Shown one piece after another: positions 3,433 through 34,404 of a stretch of 37,086 nucleotides of DNA. Position numbers and translations under genes: made by a program. The DNA comes from a virus. Lineage: Duplodnaviria; Heunggongvirae; Uroviricota; Caudoviricetes. Under the pieces are notes generated by a model, which was given only the letters and a program-made list of their open reading frames with translations, did not search any database and was not told the DNA's origin. How positions within the stretch are numbered: the first letter of the stretch is position 1; each line of letters opens with the position of its first letter. The stretch covers positions 1 to 37,086 of the IMG/VR virus record IMGVR_UViG_2671180770_000020; one strand, written 5' to 3'.

Positions 3433-4017
3433 TTATTGTTTGCTTTTTTCGTTCTGGTTGATGACAAATTCAATGTAACTTTCGATCTTTGCTTTCTCGG
3501 TTTCGGGTAACAATGCGTAGCGTGAGCGGTCATAGTTGATAGTCGCAGGGTCGTGCGGGTGAATCAGTAGTTCATATCCGTGACGCCCGAATGCGGATGC
3601 AACATTCTCCAGGGTGGAAATGGAAACGCTGACCTCATTGTTTAACAGGCGACTGATTGTCACCTGGGCGACGCCGGATGCGCGGTGAAGTTTTCCCTGC
3701 GTTGAAAGGTCGCGGCTTTCGCTCATCCAGCGTTCCAGGTTGTGAGCCGCCAGCTGACCAATGTCGCTTGGGCCGACAGGCTGAAAACCTTCCTGAGAAA
3801 GCGAGCGATCGATATCAAGCCAGTTACGGGGTTTATTGGCGGCAGCTTCAATTTTTCGCGCAACCTGGTCGCCGATAACCTTCTTGCCAAGAGCCCAGCG
3901 GTTTACCAGATTTGCCTGAGTTCCAAGTTTTTCTGCCATCCGCGTCTGAACACCATTGAATTCACGGTCGATCAAGTCGTTGAGATTTTGCCTGCGGACG
4001 TCCTGGATACTTTTCAT
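3433..4017 (-). CDS. Prophage repressor (CI-like) with HTH_XRE domain(s) and no S24/LexA-type peptidase domain
   Basis: 194 aa; N-terminal Cro/CI-type HTH (...QTRMAEKLGTQANLVNRWALGKK...); a second HTH-like segment (...VTISRLLNNEVSVSISTLENVASAFG...); no Ala-Gly cleavage site or Ser/Lys peptidase motif seen; divergent from the cro-like gene. Confidence 0.7.
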   Translation of the reverse strand: MKSIQDVRRQNLNDLIDREFNGVQTRMAEKLGTQANLVNRWALGKKVIGDQVARKIEAAANKPRNWLDIDRSLSQEGFQPVGPSDIGQLAAHNLERWMSESRDLSTQGKLHRASGVAQVTISRLLNNEVSVSISTLENVASAFGRHGYELLIHPHDPATINYDRSRYALLPETEKAKIESYIEFVINQNEKSKQ

Positions 4018-12600: not shown

Positions 12601-12677
12601 TGGCGTGGCATGCAGGATTCGAACCTGCGACCAACCGCTTAGAAGGCGGTTGCTCTGTCCAACTGAGCTAATGCCAC
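12601..12677 (-). tRNA. tRNA-Arg (anticodon UCU), 77 nt with encoded CCA
   Basis: Hand-folded cloverleaf: acceptor GUGGCAU/AUGCCAC, D-arm GCUC-AGUUGGACA-GAGC, anticodon arm ACCGC-CUUCUAA-GCGGU, variable loop UGGUC, T-arm GCAGG-UUCGAAU-CCUGC, discriminator G, CCA. Confidence 0.9.
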
Positions 12678-29609: not shown

Positions 29610-29648
29610 AACGAATGCCACCGCCGCCCGGGCGGGAATCCGCAGACA

Positions 29649-29671
29649 CAAAAAAGCCCGCGTCGCGGGCT
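29649..29671 (-). terminator. Intrinsic terminator after the minus-strand gene 29679-30314
   Basis: Minus strand AGCCCGC-gac-GCGGGCT followed by TTTTTT (A-run 29650-29655 on plus). Confidence 0.55.
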
Positions 29672-29678
29672 TAACGAA

Positions 29679-30314
29679 TTATTCTATTGGCAGCTTATGC
29701 TTTGAAATTATGGCCAATCTGTTTTGGAAGTTTTCCGCATCACCCCACAACCAGGTTTCACCTTTCTCAAGCTCTTCCTCGTTATTCATCTCTATCAGTT
29801 CGCATGTCATCATGTCGTAACCATAGAGGTGGAGGCCAAGTTCCAGTGCGTCATACATGCGAGCCTGCCAGAACGACATGCCTTCATGAGTCTGGTTGCG
29901 ATCAGACACGATGATATCGTACCGTTCCAAGAGGTAGTTCATGAAGATGATGCCGGCGAAATCATGAAGCACAGCACGATGCTTAGGCTTCTGGGTTCTC
30001 CATACCAATATCTGCGTGACAGGTCGGCAGTTAAGATAGCTGTCAGGCTGGATAATGACACGATTGTAATACACAACCTCTTCGGTGAGGTCATTTATCA
30101 GTGCCAGTTCAAAGTGCGCCTGTGGAATCTCGCCTTTCTTACGATCGTCTACACGGACAACGCGGTATCCAGGAGCCAGAGAAACGCCTTTGACATCAGA
30201 TGTGACATCGTTGCCGTTCACTAACTCTGAATACAGGGCGCGGTTGTCTGGAGTTTCGTTCAGATGAGCGAAAACCTCAGTTACCTTTGCCGGATTCAGC
30301 AGTTGTTGTGGCAT
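29679..30314 (-). CDS. Hypothetical cytoplasmic protein (211 aa) in the accessory island
   Basis: ATG 30314 with GAGGTGA upstream; no recognisable motif. Confidence 0.5.
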   Translation of the reverse strand: MPQQLLNPAKVTEVFAHLNETPDNRALYSELVNGNDVTSDVKGVSLAPGYRVVRVDDRKKGEIPQAHFELALINDLTEEVVYYNRVIIQPDSYLNCRPVTQILVWRTQKPKHRAVLHDFAGIIFMNYLLERYDIIVSDRNQTHEGMSFWQARMYDALELGLHLYGYDMMTCELIEMNNEEELEKGETWLWGDAENFQNRLAIISKHKLPIE

Positions 30315-30432: not shown

Positions 30433-31083
30433 TCAGAAGAACCCTGCCTTGTCGTTGATGTATTCCGCGTGAGTCTGGATATCACGCAGGCATTTGCTCA
30501 CACCGACGATGTAGCAGAACATGGTGGTCAGCTCCGCCGCCGCGCCCGATACATCGTGCCCGTCTTCCTGTAACTGGTTCAGCAGATTCATCAGCAGTGA
30601 GTTCTCCGTCAGGCCGAGAACACCAGATGGGGAATGAATCAGACTGCGGTAGCCGGGCTTCAGCGGTGCACTGTATTCTTTTTTGTCTTCCAGCTTGATC
30701 GCCTCCATAATGGCTGGCATGAAGCCTGACAAGACCTTCTCCACTTTTGTTTCTTGTTGTCTTAAACGTTTCTCGCATTCAATGAAGTAGCGTCGCACCT
30801 GGCGACCTTTTTCGTTACGCTCGACCATCGCCAGCTCTTTGGCTGTATCGAGGGTGAGGTGGTAGTCTTTTGCAGGACGGCCTCTGCCTATTTTTTCCCG
30901 AACTTGGGAAATAATCATAAAGTCTTGATTTTCAACGAAACCATATTCAGCAATTCGTTCGACAATCCACGAAGCAAATCGCTTACCCACATCGAGGAAA
31001 GTGTGTAAATCACGGGCATTAACGAGAAGAGCGGTTTCGTTGGATATAGTGCCGTTGAATACGGGGATGAGTTGAGCGTTCAT
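30433..31083 (-). CDS. Antirepressor (AntA-type N-terminal domain)
   Basis: 216 aa; N-terminal ...LIPVFNGT...NARDLHTFLDVGKRFASWIVERIAEYGFVENQDFMI... matches the remembered AntA/AntB antirepressor domain; GGAG upstream of ATG 31083. Confidence 0.7.
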   Translation of the reverse strand: MNAQLIPVFNGTISNETALLVNARDLHTFLDVGKRFASWIVERIAEYGFVENQDFMIISQVREKIGRGRPAKDYHLTLDTAKELAMVERNEKGRQVRRYFIECEKRLRQQETKVEKVLSGFMPAIMEAIKLEDKKEYSAPLKPGYRSLIHSPSGVLGLTENSLLMNLLNQLQEDGHDVSGAAAELTTMFCYIVGVSKCLRDIQTHAEYINDKAGFF

Positions 31084-31240
31084 TATGGCGTCTCCACTTA
31101 GCGAATTACATCACCACCGCTGAGACCAATCAGATGGTGGTGAACTGAACGGAGTTGGTCTTACCGGCCTAAGTGGTACCGGCGTCCTTTCGGACCCCCA
31201 TTCAGCCCACCATAATTCTGGCATGACTGTGCTATACGCA

Positions 31241-31263
31241 TAAAAAAACCACGTCTGGCGTGG
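31241..31263 (-). terminator. Intrinsic terminator between the small Ant-like gene and the antirepressor gene
   Basis: Minus strand CCACG-ccaga-CGTGG followed by TTTTTTTAT. Confidence 0.45.
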
Positions 31264-31354
31264 TATGCGCCACTTAGTAATCCGGGAGACCAATCCCGGC
31301 ACTGGATTTTGCCAGTGCCCGATTACTATGGCACAAGAGGAGTGCGATGTAAAT

Positions 31355-31369
31355 TTACCGCAAAGGTAA
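31355..31369. promoter_or_regulatory. Perfect palindrome TTACCgcaaaGGTAA in the leader upstream of the antirepressor gene
   Basis: Followed by the near-palindrome GGTAATTACA at about 31389-31398. Confidence 0.45.
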
Positions 31370-31400
31370 ATATAAGCACTCCGCTTGGTAATTACAAACC

Positions 31401-31658
31401 TTATCTGGTTTGTTTTCGTAATTGTTCGGCACAATAGTCGAGATGTGTTTGCAGATCCTGCATAGACATCTGTGAGCTGGTGACGTAGTTAATCAGTGCA
31501 GTCAGTTCGGCAAGTGGGCCATCGACATTAAATCCATCCTTATCGAGATCCCGGAGTAATTTCATCAAGTGCGATCCCTCCACCAGTGACCTGACGCCTC
31601 CCGGCGTGTGAATCCTTTCGGTAAATCCCTCTTCCAGTGGATAGTGATACTGCTGCAT
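31401..31658 (-). CDS. Small protein (85 aa) paralogous to the C-terminal domain of the adjacent antirepressor; LexA-box-associated
   Basis: MQQYHYPLEEGFTERIHTPGGVRSLVEGSHLMKLLRDLDKDGFNVDGPLAELTALINY...DLQTHLDY aligns by eye with antirepressor residues about 130-205 (...YSAPLKPGYRSLIHSPSGVLGLTENSLLMNLLNQLQEDGHDVSGAAAELTTMF...DIQTHAEY); GGAGAAG upstream of ATG 31658. Confidence 0.6.
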   Translation of the reverse strand: MQQYHYPLEEGFTERIHTPGGVRSLVEGSHLMKLLRDLDKDGFNVDGPLAELTALINYVTSSQMSMQDLQTHLDYCAEQLRKQTR

Positions 31659-31679
31659 CTTATCTTCTCCATGCAATAA

Positions 31680-31695
31680 CTGTATAAATATACAG
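31680..31695. promoter_or_regulatory. LexA (SOS) box CTGT-N8-ACAG
   Basis: aaCTGTATAAATATACAGta at 31678-31697, a near-consensus match to TACTGTATATATATACAGTA, 22-37 nt upstream of the small Ant-like gene start on the transcribed side. Confidence 0.7.
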
Positions 31696-31734
31696 TAGCA
31701 AATAATTTGTTTGCTATCCAGCACGTTTTGCGAA

Positions 31735-31749
31735 TCACCTGAAAGGTAA
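31735..31749. promoter_or_regulatory. Near-perfect palindrome copy (tCACCtgaaaGGTAA) upstream of the LexA box
   Basis: About 40 bp beyond the LexA box in the divergent intergenic region shared with the tail fiber gene. Confidence 0.4.
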
Positions 31750-31853
31750 TATCTGTTCGTATTTATGGGTTATCTATCCATATATGGTTTTTAAGGTAAT
31801 AGAATAACCGGATATGCGGCGCAACGGGTGCTGCGACTATCTGGAGATTTAAC

Positions 31854-33999: not shown

Positions 34000-34404
34000 A
34001 TGTCATTTCAAATAACTAATGATCATGTAAATCAGTATCTTACTGTTGGTTCTCTTGCTGCGGTTATTGGTGGGACTCCACCTGAAGTTGCTTTGGGTTC
34101 ACTTGCCGGAGCTGTGATTTTTGTTACCTCTGCTATCGAGTATCCAATCCGTCGTCGTGTTCTTCTGTCAGTGCTCAGCTTTATTTGCGGCCTTCTCTTT
34201 TACAAACCAGCAGCATCAATTCTTATTGGCATAGCCAGCCTGATCCCTACCATCACACAGGACTCTTTTGAGAAAGGGATTGTTTTCTCTGCTGGCGCAT
34301 TCGTGTCAGCAATTGTCGCTGTGCGTATTGGTATCTGGCTCTATCACCGTTCCGATAATCCACGCGAATTAATGCCGGGGAGAAAAGACGATGGTAACGC
34401 ATGA
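34000..34404 (+). CDS. Holin-like membrane protein
   Basis: 134 aa from ATG 34000 (GGTGG upstream); multiple TM segments; first gene of the lysis cassette. Confidence 0.5.
   Translation: MSFQITNDHVNQYLTVGSLAAVIGGTPPEVALGSLAGAVIFVTSAIEYPIRRRVLLSVLSFICGLLFYKPAASILIGIASLIPTITQDSFEKGIVFSAGAFVSAIVAVRIGIWLYHRSDNPRELMPGRKDDGNA

What the first reader, a model, noticed from the sequence alone, without database searches (positions are those of the whole stretch)
31084..31400. Highly structured 317-bp leader between the small Ant-like gene and the antirepressor gene
The only ORF here (31111-31434, minus) looks spurious. The interval has an intrinsic terminator (31241-31263), several GC dyads (CCGGGAGACCAATCCCGG; GCACTGG-attttg-CCAGTGC), the motif CCACTTAG in two direct copies (about 31092 and 31270) and one inverted copy (about 31171), and a palindrome copy at 31355-31369. 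This suggests attenuation or an RNA-based control step on read-through from the SOS promoter into the antirepressor gene, or a separate small RNA.
Basis: seen in the sequence. Interest (0 to 1): 0.4.

Follow-up and report, generated by a model that had tools for sequence, protein, structure and literature searches.

The report
P1-type C4/IsrK antisense immunity cassette
The "structured leader" is a copy of a known phage RNA switch: a small antisense RNA (C4) predicted to block translation of the antirepressor gene just downstream, preceded by a decoy small RNA (IsrK-like), so it is a new member of a known kind.

Summary
Together they form one known unit. Rfam places an IsrK-family sRNA at 31318..31242 (67.7 bits, cut-off 50) and a C4 antisense RNA at 31217..31133 (61.2 bits, cut-off 45).

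- **CCACTTAG triple:** these are the b elements. b1 lies in the IsrK-like RNA, b' in a C4 loop, and b2 on the Shine-Dalgarno of the AntA-type antirepressor gene.
TTGGTCT/AGACCAA gives a1, a' and a2.
- **Dyads and terminator:** the two GC dyads and the terminator are the three IsrK hairpins.
- **Palindrome:** it abuts the -35 of the cassette's own promoter and is one of nine TTACC-N5-GGTAA copies, probably prophage repressor operators.

In 21 related loci, a' and b' change (5 and 13 types) and both target copies change with them. The C4 stems show 11 compensatory pairs. Phage P1 immI and the Gifsy-1 isrK-anrP locus have the same order, spacing and promoter position.

Some loci carry the cassette with a 100% identical ant gene but no SOS gene upstream. 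It is therefore autonomous, not merely a leader for SOS read-through. The window is an epsilon15/phiV10-like E. coli prophage.

Verdict: new member of a known kind, low interest. The mechanism is inferred by homology, not shown here.

The parts
31680..31695 (.). LexA-box-like palindrome CTGTATAAATATACAG, 22 nt upstream of the small gene's ATG (context, not part of the cassette proper).
   Evidence: one of 3 CTGT-N8-ACAG sites in the window; a CTGT-N8-ACAG box sits at a fixed distance in six of the loci examined, five at -374 to -377 from IsrK +1 (window, phiV10, L078, HEMP4, ZX5, Phi05_1387) and Tyrion at -380. It is absent from the non-Uetakevirus loci.
31401..31658 (-). Small 85-aa gene. It is a stand-alone paralog of the antirepressor's C-terminal domain (context).
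   Evidence: 40% identity to Ant residues 135-212, E 3e-16; phrog_450 matches both proteins (1e-47 and 3e-36).
31355..31369 (.). TTACC-N5-GGTAA palindrome abutting the -35 hexamer. Probably an operator for the prophage repressor.
   Evidence: 9 copies against 0.01 expected; present at -51 (phiV10 -48) from IsrK +1 in all 13 phiV10/Uetakevirus-type loci with the TTTACA/CATAGT promoter, with conserved arms and a variable N5, and absent from the 8 other loci examined there (APSE, Yersinia, phiP27 and others); copies flank the 194-aa HTH_3 repressor-like gene at 3433-4017.
31325..31353 (-). Cassette promoter: -35 TTTACA (31353..31348), 17-nt spacer, TGn-CATAGT (-10 at 31330..31325). Predicted start at G31318.
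   Evidence: promoter scan; the same geometry in 22 of 23 loci, including P1's annotated P1c4 promoter and the Gifsy-1 locus, whose isrK promoter was shown functional.
31242..31318 (-). IsrK-family sRNA, equivalent to the a1/b1 element of P1. Hairpin 1 is 31318..31299. Hairpin 2 is 31298..31283 and shows a1 (UUGGUCU, 31293..31287) in its loop. b1 (CUAAGUGG) is 31277..31270. The terminator stem is 31264..31248 plus a U run to 31242.
   Evidence: RF01394, 67.7 bits (cut-off 50). RF03163 c4-a1b1 scores 39.9 bits (below its cut-off of 46.7).: -29.4 kcal/mol, z -2.9; hairpins 97.5% paired, with 5 pairs showing compensatory changes.
31133..31217 (-). C4-family antisense RNA. It has a 17-bp closing stem and two internal hairpins. 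b' (CCACUUAG, 31176..31169) is in the hairpin-2 loop. a' (AGACCAA, 31161..31155) is in the 3' bulge. By homology to P1's 77-nt C4, the mature form is predicted at about 31211..31136.
   Evidence: RF01695, 61.2 bits (cut-off 45).: -41.2 kcal/mol, z -5.5, 0 of 200 shuffles as stable; 100% of cells paired, 11 of 27 pairs with compensatory changes, 0 of 500 shuffles as good.
31123..31129 (-). a2 target (UUGGUCU) on the ant mRNA leader, 3 nt after the C4 model's end.
   Evidence: A perfect 7-nt complement to a' is found in 21 of 21 loci and follows the 5 a' types.
31111..31118 (-). Conserved GGUGGUGA between a2 and b2. It is complementary to the 3' strand (UCACCACC) of the C4 closing stem and may form an alternative hairpin that presents a2.
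   Evidence: 96% paired but almost invariant, so covariation is inconclusive.
31092..31101 (-). b2 target (CUAAGUGG, 31101..31094) overlapping the ant Shine-Dalgarno GGAG (31095..31092). The ant AUG (31083..31081) lies 10 nt after b2.
   Evidence: The b2-to-start spacing of 10 nt is the same as b2 to icd in P1.
30433..31083 (-). Antirepressor gene (216 aa, AntA/AntB N-terminal domain), the regulated target.
   Evidence: PF08346, 8.2e-28; phrog_377 'anti-repressor Ant', 2.5e-65.

Best explanation
The interval is an autonomous antisense-RNA immunity cassette of the phage P1 immI / Gifsy-1 isrK type, sitting in an epsilon15/phiV10-like E. coli prophage. Everything is read on the minus strand.

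1. A promoter at 31353..31325, flanked by a probable repressor operator, starts transcription at about 31318.
2. Most transcripts stop at the terminator (31264..31242). This gives a 77-nt IsrK-like sRNA that displays a1 and b1.
3. Transcripts that read through contain the C4 RNA (31217..31133), which by homology to P1 is probably cut out as a roughly 76-nt species. They then contain a2, b2 and ant.
4. The two single-stranded elements of C4, a' (AGACCAA) and b' (CCACUUAG), pair with a2 and b2. Because b2 overlaps the ant Shine-Dalgarno, Ant is not translated and the prophage repressor stays active.
5. The a1/b1 copies compete for the same C4 elements, both in cis within the read-through RNA and in trans as the short sRNA. 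The ratio of IsrK-like RNA to C4 therefore sets Ant translation. The a/b sequences define the immunity specificity.

**Shown here:** the RNAs' family membership, their structure with covariation, three-way co-variation of a'/b' with both target sets, the conserved promoter position, and the cassette's portability.

**Inferred by homology:** translational repression of ant, processing of C4, activation by the IsrK-like RNA, and control of the promoter by the repressor.
For: **Family matches**
- Both RNAs score above Rfam's curated cut-offs, and they are the only such hits in the window apart from one tRNA.

**Structure**
- The C4 fold is far more stable than shuffled sequence (z -5.5) and the IsrK-like fold is at z -2.9.
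- C4 stems: 100% paired, 11 compensatory pairs, 0 of 500 shuffles as good. IsrK hairpins: 97.5% paired, 5 compensatory pairs.

**Conserved arrangement**
- Tandem isrK-C4 hits upstream of an ant-type gene occur in all 20 related loci scanned.

**Target co-variation**
- a' has a perfect 7-nt complement in both a1 and a2 in 21 of 21 loci, across 5 a types.
- There are 13 b' loop types. Mean cognate b'-b1 and b'-b2 duplex energies are -12.0 and -11.5 kcal/mol, against -4.7 and -6.2 for non-cognate pairs. Only 0.5-1.2% of non-cognate pairs bind as well.

**Comparison with characterised systems**
- P1's annotated immI has the same order: operator, promoter, a1, b1, c4, a2, b2, then the first ORF 10 nt after b2. 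It is hit by the same three Rfam models.
- Gifsy-1 has isrK followed by a C4 hit, a2, b2 and anrP.
- The published IsrK mutations G28A and G31A fall in a1, and their compensating C162U and C159U fall in a'. Supplying IsrK in trans raised anrP translation 139-fold (PMC4825925).
- The full read-through RNA of the window folds with a1/b1 paired to a'/b' in cis, matching that paper's inactive structure.

**Autonomy**
- The promoter position is conserved in 22 of 23 loci.
- The cassette occurs with a 100% identical ant gene but without the SOS gene upstream.

**Downstream gene**
- In the related phage ZX5, overexpressing the Ant protein that lies downstream of the same cassette lowered lysogeny (PMC9782041; cassette in locus L084).
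Against: - No transcript, 3'-end, processing or translation data exist for this prophage. All functional steps rest on homology to P1 and Gifsy-1.
- The two reference systems are described differently in the literature. In P1, C4 acts as a repressor. In Gifsy-1, IsrK acts as an activator through an 'orf45'. Here no icd-like or orf45-like reading frame is conserved.
- The c4-a1b1 model itself scores below its cut-off (39.9 against 46.7).
- Whether the palindrome represses or activates the promoter cannot be told from its position (-51..-37).
- The role of a1/b1 in P1 is annotated only as 'putative'.
Confidence: 0.8

Rival explanations
1. Leader or attenuator for the SOS transcript. The interval has no promoter of its own. 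The terminator and dyads modulate how much transcription from the LexA-controlled promoter at about 31700 reaches ant.
For: - A perfect LexA-type box lies at 31680-31695 and is conserved at a fixed distance in six of the loci examined.
- No terminator-like site lies between the small gene's stop and the cassette on the minus strand, so read-through into the cassette is physically possible.
Against: - The promoter is conserved in position in 22 of 23 loci, including the functionally studied P1 and Gifsy-1 promoters.
- In a 15-locus cluster of viral contigs, homology starts at or just upstream of the palindrome. In L003, the one upstream flank I read, the nearest ORF is divergent and there is no SOS box, yet ant is 100% identical.
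- The family occurs in APSE, Yersinia, Klebsiella, Hafnia and P1 phages without any LexA box.
Confidence: 0.1
2. P4-like termination control as an added layer. C4 pairs with b1 on the nascent IsrK-like RNA and switches it from an anti-terminator hairpin (UGGCG/CGCCA) to the terminator. C4 would thereby limit read-through into itself and into ant.
For: - In the window's RNA, the terminator hairpin has an equilibrium probability of 0.02 when b1 is free and 0.996 when b1 is blocked.
- The same holds for L082 and L095. HEMP4 and L026 carry the same terminator sequence as the window, but the script picked the wrong helix for them, so they were not scored.
- P4's CI RNA, which the literature says the C4 Rfam profile detects, acts by causing termination through seqA and seqC (PMC10111431; discussed for IsrK in PMC4825925).
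Against: - It is not conserved. In most relatives, in Gifsy-1 and in P1, the terminator is predicted to form at 0.74 or higher without any blocking.
- The calculation is at equilibrium. Part of the competing structure uses the U tract, which is made only after the terminator itself.
- No experiment supports it.
Confidence: 0.15
3. A small protein-coding gene. Either the 107-aa ORF 31434..31111 or the 37-aa ORF 31224..31111 (the analogue of Gifsy-1 'orf45' or P1 icd) is translated and coupled to ant.
For: - ORFs exist on the minus strand.
- In Gifsy-1, mutations of the orf45 start codons lowered anrP activation.
- Some records annotate a CDS over this stretch: 'ash family protein' in ZX5 and 'similar to SF0880' in phiV10.
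Against: - Across 21 loci the ORFs over the C4 region differ in start, frame and length, and 8 loci have no ATG-initiated ORF of 20 aa or more.
- Starting from the conserved AUGGUGGG, the window's frame stops after 3 codons (read directly).
- Pfam finds nothing in the 37-aa product.
- The nucleotide conservation follows RNA pairing instead.
- The window's 37-aa ORF ends 27 nt before the ant AUG.
Confidence: 0.05

Closest known systems
Phage P1/P7 immI operon: C4 antisense RNA with a1/b1 and a2/b2 targets (Citron & Schuster 1990; Rfam RF01695 and RF03163)
   Same: - Same order on one strand: repressor operator, sigma-70 promoter with a (C/T)ATAGT -10 ending 6 nt before the a1/b1 element, a1 in a hairpin loop, b1, a terminator-like hairpin, C4, a2 3 nt after the C4 (mature C4 in P1, Rfam model end in the window), b2, and a start codon 10 nt after b2.
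- The C4 fold is the same: a closing stem plus two hairpins, with b' in a loop and a' in the 3' bulge.
- The target gene is an antirepressor.
   Different: - There is no icd-like ORF. Here b2 sits directly on the ant Shine-Dalgarno.
- The Ant protein is AntA/AntB-type (216 aa), not Ant1/Ant2.
- The a and b sequences differ: P1 uses UUGACAG and GUUAGUG, the window uses UUGGUCU and CUAAGUGG.
- The operator is TTACC-N5-GGTAA rather than a C1 site.
- The a1/b1 element here has a stronger terminator and matches isrK above its cut-off (67.7 bits, against 35.1 for P1).
- The host element is an integrated podovirus-type prophage, not a plasmid prophage.
- A LexA-controlled paralog gene lies upstream.
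Gifsy-1 isrK-orf45-anrP locus of Salmonella (Hershko-Shalev et al. 2016, PMC4825925; Rfam RF01394)
   Same: - A 77-nt IsrK-type sRNA with three hairpins and a leaky terminator, followed about 24 nt later by a C4-family RNA (the stretch that paper calls orf45/STnc1160), then a2, GGUGGUGA, b2 and an antirepressor gene.
- The promoter geometry is the same.
- a1/b1 pair in cis with a'/b' in the read-through RNA (against the paper's structure A).
   Different: - The 45-codon reading frame is not conserved here.
- The a/b specificity differs.
- The upstream neighbour is an SOS-box gene rather than antQ, and there is no isrJ downstream.
- The prophage type differs (lambdoid Gifsy-1 against epsilon15-like).
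Satellite phage P4 immunity: CI RNA with seqA and seqC
   Same: A processed small RNA encoded in the operon it controls, with complementary target copies both upstream and downstream. According to PMC10111431, the C4 and isrK Rfam profiles detect CI and seqA relatives.
   Different: P4's output is premature transcription termination of the replication operon, not occlusion of an antirepressor's ribosome-binding site.
Phage P22 immI: sar antisense RNA on ant
   Same: A small RNA holds down antirepressor synthesis in a region next to the tail-spike gene of a short-tailed temperate phage (my own knowledge, not tested here).
   Different: sar is transcribed from the opposite strand of its target. 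Here the regulator and its target are on the same strand and pair through two short loop elements. No Rfam sar-type hit was found.

Membership tests
C4 antisense RNA (P1/P7 immI type; Rfam RF01695) | Sequence and structure match to the curated covariance model above its gathering score | tested here: met
   61.2 bits against a cut-off of 45, covering the full model 1-87.
C4 antisense RNA (P1/P7 immI type; Rfam RF01695) | Long closing stem enclosing two hairpins, supported by compensatory changes in relatives | tested here: met
   MFE -41.2 kcal/mol, z -5.5. 27 pairs, 100% paired, 11 with changes on both sides, 0 of 500 shuffles as good.
C4 antisense RNA (P1/P7 immI type; Rfam RF01695) | Two unpaired elements (a', b') complementary to a2 and b2 downstream on the same transcript, with b2 covering the ribosome-binding site of the first downstream ORF | tested here: met
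   a' AGACCAA pairs with a2 UUGGUCU. b' CCACUUAG pairs with b2 CUAAGUGG, which overlaps GGAG 10 nt before the AUG. The elements co-vary across 21 loci.
C4 antisense RNA (P1/P7 immI type; Rfam RF01695) | Second set of target copies (a1, b1) upstream of c4, with a1 in a hairpin loop (c4-a1b1 motif) | tested here: met
   a1 is at 31293..31287 in the hairpin-2 loop and b1 at 31277..31270. The RF03163 model itself scores 39.9, below its cut-off of 46.7, while the overlapping isrK model passes.
C4 antisense RNA (P1/P7 immI type; Rfam RF01695) | Regulator and target transcribed from one promoter that carries a prophage-repressor operator | tested here: inconclusive
   The promoter position is conserved in 22 of 23 loci. 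The palindrome next to the -35 is one of 9 copies and flanks the HTH repressor gene. Neither binding nor its effect was tested.
C4 antisense RNA (P1/P7 immI type; Rfam RF01695) | An icd-like ORF between b2 and ant, translationally coupled to ant | tested here: not met
   b2 lies directly before the ant start, and no conserved ORF is present. This is a feature of P1's operon rather than of the RNA family. Most relatives examined here also lack it.
C4 antisense RNA (P1/P7 immI type; Rfam RF01695) | Processing of the primary transcript to a roughly 77-nt RNA (RNase P at the 5' end) and repression of Ant synthesis that gives immunity | not testable with these tools
   Only the conserved AUGGUGGG...CACCACC ends are visible. 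This needs RNA mapping and genetics.
IsrK sRNA (Gifsy-1 type; Rfam RF01394) | Match to the curated model above its gathering score, with three hairpins, the last being a Rho-independent terminator | tested here: met
   67.7 bits against a cut-off of 50, covering the full model 1-77. The terminator is found independently. The hairpins show covariation.
IsrK sRNA (Gifsy-1 type; Rfam RF01394) | Followed on the same strand by a read-through target containing a complementary stretch and an antirepressor gene | tested here: met
   C4 lies 24 nt downstream, followed by ant. Pairing of a1/b1 with a'/b' in cis appears in the MFE fold of the full RNA. Gifsy-1 has the same arrangement.
IsrK sRNA (Gifsy-1 type; Rfam RF01394) | An upstream ORF ('orf45') whose translation is coupled to the antirepressor | tested here: not met
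   The frames are not conserved. From the conserved AUG, the window's frame closes after 3 codons.
IsrK sRNA (Gifsy-1 type; Rfam RF01394) | Hfq binding, and activation of antirepressor translation by the short RNA in trans | not testable with these tools
   Known only from experiments in Salmonella (PMC4825925).
P4 CI RNA / seqA-seqC termination immunity | Pairing of the small RNA with its flanking targets causes premature transcription termination | tested here: inconclusive
   Blocking b1 shifts the window's IsrK-like RNA from 0.02 to 0.996 terminator probability.

The most novel reading that the evidence does not exclude
In this prophage lineage the cassette may couple three inputs.

1. C4 occludes the ant ribosome-binding site, as in P1.
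2. Pairing of C4 with b1 flips an anti-terminator into the IsrK terminator, giving P4-like negative feedback on read-through. This is seen only for the window-type terminator.
3. SOS-induced read-through from the LexA-box promoter upstream floods the cell with a1/b1 decoy RNA, because most transcripts still stop at the terminator. The decoy titrates C4 and makes the large Ant SOS-inducible through an RNA sponge. In parallel, the SOS-induced 85-aa protein, which corresponds to the Ant C-terminal domain alone, would act on its own.
Probability: 0.2. Interest if true: 0.5.

Novelty: new member of a known kind. Interest (0 to 1): 0.22.

Why it matters
**Annotation.** It explains an unannotated 317-bp gap. 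A match to the wider 691-bp query (31070-31760) occurs in about 10% of complete E. coli genomes (543 of 5426). In the top records listed, RefSeq annotates only a 'hypothetical protein' and an Ant gene under the match. Some phage records place doubtful CDSs over the C4 RNA.

**Biology.** It identifies what sets antirepressor expression, and probably heteroimmunity, among epsilon15/phiV10-like prophages. These include phages used for O157 typing and detection.

**Link between two literatures.** The comparison shows in sequence terms that Gifsy-1 'orf45/STnc1160' is a C4 homolog and that IsrK is the a1/b1 element. None of this is a new kind of mechanism.

Tried and rejected
- **MAFFT alignments for pair counting.** The C4 alignment put hairpins 1 and 2 out of register in some rows, so I realigned with a covariance model. 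The IsrK alignment put the terminator out of register, so I counted only hairpins 1-2 there.
- **Alternative a2-presenting hairpin (UCACCACC with GGUGGUGA).** It is 96% paired but almost invariant, with only 1 compensatory pair, and 111 of 500 shuffles reach that count. This is inconclusive.
- **Anti-terminator switch.** The first script picked the wrong helix for the window and for the two other loci with the same terminator sequence (L083, L026). I recomputed by hand. It is not conserved in the family, so I kept it only as a low-confidence rival.
- **Protein-coding reading of the interval.** Rejected.
- **Other C4 targets in the window.** There are no further CCACTTAG or CTAAGTGG sites. The extra AGACCAA sites are at chance level.
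- **Primary P1 papers** (PMC312442, PMC196329, PMC523184). They are not held. P1 facts therefore come from the annotated P1 record, from reviews and from my own knowledge.
- **Trp_leader hit at 29648-29755.** It scores 21.9 bits against a cut-off of 41, so I treated it as chance.
- **BLAST against the 80 ant-related loci.** Most gave no hit to the cassette. Rfam then showed that they carry an sRNA-Xcc1-type RNA instead.
Full report
**1. Observation**

- CCACTTAG lies at 31094 and 31270 on the + strand and inverted at 31169. These are the only three copies in the 37-kb window, against 0.75 expected.
- The dyads lie at 31282-31299 and 31299-31318.
- The intrinsic terminator is on the minus strand: stem 31264..31248, then a T run to 31242.
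- TTACCGCAAAGGTAA lies at 31355-31369.

One is a second triple, AGACCAA, at 31123 and 31287 with an inverted copy at 31155. The other is a sigma-70-like promoter on the minus strand at 31353..31325.

The flanking genes are on the minus strand.
- The antirepressor (AntA domain, 216 aa) is at 31083..30433.
- An 85-aa gene is at 31658..31401. It is a paralog of the Ant C-terminal domain (40% identity, E 3e-16; phrog_450).
- A perfect LexA-type box precedes it at 31680-31695.

**2. What it is**

A scan against Rfam gives two full-length hits on the minus strand, both above the curated cut-offs.
- isrK (RF01394) at 31318..31242: 67.7 bits, cut-off 50.
- C4 antisense RNA (RF01695) at 31217..31133: 61.2 bits, cut-off 45.
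- A sub-threshold c4-a1b1 hit (RF03163, 39.9 against 46.7) overlaps isrK.

Over the whole window these two and one tRNA are the only hits above cut-off.

- The two GC dyads are IsrK hairpins 1 and 2.
- The terminator is the IsrK 3' hairpin.
- The inverted CCACTTAG is the loop (b') of C4 hairpin 2.
- The two direct copies are b1 (in IsrK) and b2. On the RNA, b2 reads CUAAGUGGAG and so includes the ant Shine-Dalgarno, 10 nt before the AUG.
- The second triple gives a' (the 3' bulge of C4), a1 (the loop of IsrK hairpin 2) and a2 (3 nt after the C4 model's end).

The folds are stable. C4 folds at -41.2 kcal/mol (z -5.5) and IsrK at -29.4 kcal/mol (z -2.9).

**3. Host element and relatives**

The region is 93-99% identical to Escherichia phage phiv142-3. 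It is related to phiV10, TL-2011b, ZX5 and Tyrion (Uetakevirus, epsilon15-like).

All 20 related loci that I scanned carry isrK, a gap of about 24 nt, C4, a gap of about 45 nt, and then an ant-type gene. These loci come from E. coli, Enterobacter, Klebsiella, Hafnia, Yersinia, Salmonella and the aphid-symbiont phages APSE-2 and APSE-7.

The APSE-7 record already annotates both RNAs and the a'/b' elements. The APSE paper discusses them (PMC7313666).

**4. Comparative tests**

- **C4 structure.** I realigned 23 C4 copies (20 distinct) with a covariance model. 100% of cells pair, and 11 of 27 pairs show changes on both sides. No shuffle out of 500 does as well, and the slid-register controls fall to 30-50% paired.
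- **IsrK structure.** Hairpins 1-2 are 97.5% paired, with 5 compensatory pairs.
- **Three-way target matching, the strongest test.**
  - Across 21 loci there are 5 a' types and 13 b' loop types, forming 16 combinations.
  - a' has a perfect 7-nt complement in both a1 and a2 in 21 of 21 loci.
  - Mean cognate b'-b1 and b'-b2 duplexes are -12.0 and -11.5 kcal/mol, against -4.7 and -6.2 for non-cognate pairs.
  - Only 0.5-1.2% of non-cognate pairs are as good.
- **Specificity.** The window combines the a type of Tyrion and a Klebsiella phage with the b type of HEMP4. That combination is unique in this set.
- **Coding potential.** ORFs across the C4 stretch differ in start, frame and length, and 8 loci have none. 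The 107-aa and 37-aa ORFs are therefore spurious.

**5. Own promoter and autonomy**

In 22 of 23 loci, a -35/-10 pair has its -10 ending exactly 6 nt before the IsrK +1. This includes P1's annotated P1c4 promoter and the Gifsy-1 locus, where the IsrK paper showed that the isrK promoter drives anrP transcription.

In a 15-locus cluster of viral contigs (two more loci share the same homology start), the cassette matches the window at about 98-99%. Homology to the window there begins at about 31370-31380, at or just upstream of the palindrome. I read one of these upstream flanks, L003. There ant is 100% identical, the nearest upstream ORF is divergent, and there is no SOS box.

The cassette is therefore a portable unit and not just a leader of the SOS transcript. 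In this window, read-through from the SOS promoter is still possible, because no terminator lies between 31401 and 31331 on the minus strand.

**6. The palindrome**

TTACC-N5-GGTAA occurs 9 times in the window, against 0.01 expected. Copies flank a 194-aa HTH_3 repressor-like gene at 3433-4017, on the minus strand.

In all 13 phiV10/Uetakevirus-type loci with the TTTACA/CATAGT promoter it abuts the cassette's -35 hexamer, with conserved arms and a variable centre. It is absent from the 8 other loci examined there.

It is most simply the prophage repressor's operator, analogous to Oc4/Op51 in P1. Whether binding at -51..-37 represses or activates the promoter cannot be decided here.

**7. Comparison with the characterised systems**

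*P1 immI.* It reads: C1 operator, promoters, a1, b1, c4 (77 nt), a2 3 nt after the mature C4, b2, and icd starting 10 nt after b2, then ant. The same three Rfam models hit it. isrK scores 35.1 bits there and includes a terminator-like hairpin.

*Gifsy-1.* It has isrK (79.3 bits), C4 (69 bits), a2, GGUGGUGA, b2 and anrP.

I numbered the Gifsy-1 RNA from the Rfam isrK start.
- The published up-mutations G28A and G31A fall in a1.
- Their compensating changes C162U and C159U fall in a'.

The paper's inactive helix b-I is therefore a1:a' pairing. Its 'orf45/STnc1160' is the C4 homolog.

In that system, short IsrK supplied in trans raised anrP translation 139-fold. The window's full read-through RNA also folds with a1/b1 paired to a'/b'.

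**8. Mechanism**

*Shown here:* family membership, structure, target co-variation, promoter conservation and portability.

*Inferred by homology:*
- C4 pairs with a2 and b2 and blocks the ant ribosome-binding site.
- The IsrK-like RNA competes for a' and b', in cis and in trans, and so relieves the block.
- The a/b sequences set immunity specificity.
- C4 is processed to about 76 nt.

The Ant protein downstream of the same cassette in phage ZX5 lowered lysogeny when overexpressed (PMC9782041).

*A possible extra layer.* In the window-type IsrK RNA, the terminator hairpin is predicted at probability 0.02 when b1 is free and 0.996 when b1 is occupied. That would let C4 favour termination, as in P4. 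The effect is not conserved in most relatives, in Gifsy-1 or in P1, so I rate it low.

**9. Verdict**

This is a new member of a known kind, the P1 immI C4 / Gifsy-1 IsrK antisense immunity cassette, in an epsilon15/phiV10-like E. coli prophage.

- Interest is low for the finding itself.

The side observations are worth a note: the sRNA-Xcc1-type cassettes that replace C4 before the same ant gene, and the SOS-controlled gene for the Ant C-terminal domain alone.

Noticed in passing
Loci L005 1110-1520, L008, L048, L069, L038, L056 and others (IMG/VR contigs fetched): The C4/IsrK cassette is replaced by an sRNA-Xcc1 family RNA (RF02221) about 40 nt before the ATG. This happens in front of ant genes related to the window's, some 98-99% identical (L005, L008). 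The RNA's hairpin loop is complementary to about 8 nt abutting the ant Shine-Dalgarno. It is also complementary to a copy in an upstream hairpin that is followed by a terminator. There are 13 loop types, with cognate runs of 7.7 nt against 4.6 nt for non-cognate. This looks like a second, structurally different C4-like immunity cassette. Rfam does not link sRNA-Xcc1 to the C4 clan.
   Followed up: partly
window 3299, 3361, 4073, 6404, 6466, 9432, 13001, 30353, 31355 (15 bp each): There are nine copies of TTACC-N5-GGTAA, against 0.01 expected. Two pairs are spaced 62 bp apart. Copies flank a 194-aa HTH_3 repressor-like gene (3433-4017, minus) and precede the 211-aa gene at 30314. These are probably the prophage repressor's operators.
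   Followed up: partly
window 31401-31695 (minus strand); imperfect palindrome TCACCTGAAAGGTAA at 31735-31749: The 85-aa gene behind a perfect LexA box encodes only the Ant C-terminal domain (phrog_450). The box is conserved at a fixed distance in six of the loci examined, at -374 to -377 from IsrK +1 in five and -380 in Tyrion. Some relatives have a perfect TTACC-N5-GGTAA about 50 nt upstream of the box, where the window has a one-mismatch copy. This may be the SOS-inducible antirepressor of these phages. Its function is unknown.
   Followed up: partly
L100 (Gifsy-1, NC_010392) 34316..34076, minus strand: The published 'orf45/STnc1160' of the isrK locus coincides with a C4-family RNA (69 bits). 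The published compensatory pairs G28-C162 and G31-C159 are a1:a' pairs. The IsrK paper compares the locus with P4 CI/seqA but does not name c4.
   Followed up: yes
L084 (phage ZX5) 707-820; L002 (phiV10) 2297-2364: Deposited annotations place a CDS ('ash family protein') or a 'similar to SF0880' feature over the C4 RNA. In the top E. coli RefSeq records listed for the wider 691-bp match (found in 543 of 5426 complete genomes), no ncRNA is annotated under it. These are likely mis-annotations or omissions.
   Followed up: no
window 31111-31118 (GGUGGUGA on the minus strand) and relatives: An almost invariant GGUGGUGA lies between a2 and b2. It is complementary to the 3' strand of the C4 closing stem. 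It could form an alternative hairpin that presents a2 in its loop, which would mirror how a1 is presented. Covariation is too sparse to judge.
   Followed up: partly
window 31155-31176, compared with L083, L026, L086 and L088: The window's immunity specificity is a mosaic. Its a type (AGACCAA) is shared with Tyrion and a Klebsiella phage. Its b type (CCACUUAG) is shared with HEMP4 and L026. This suggests recombination within the cassette that creates new specificities.
   Followed up: no
window 12601-12677 (minus): A tRNA-Arg (anticodon tct) gene lies inside the prophage.
   Followed up: no
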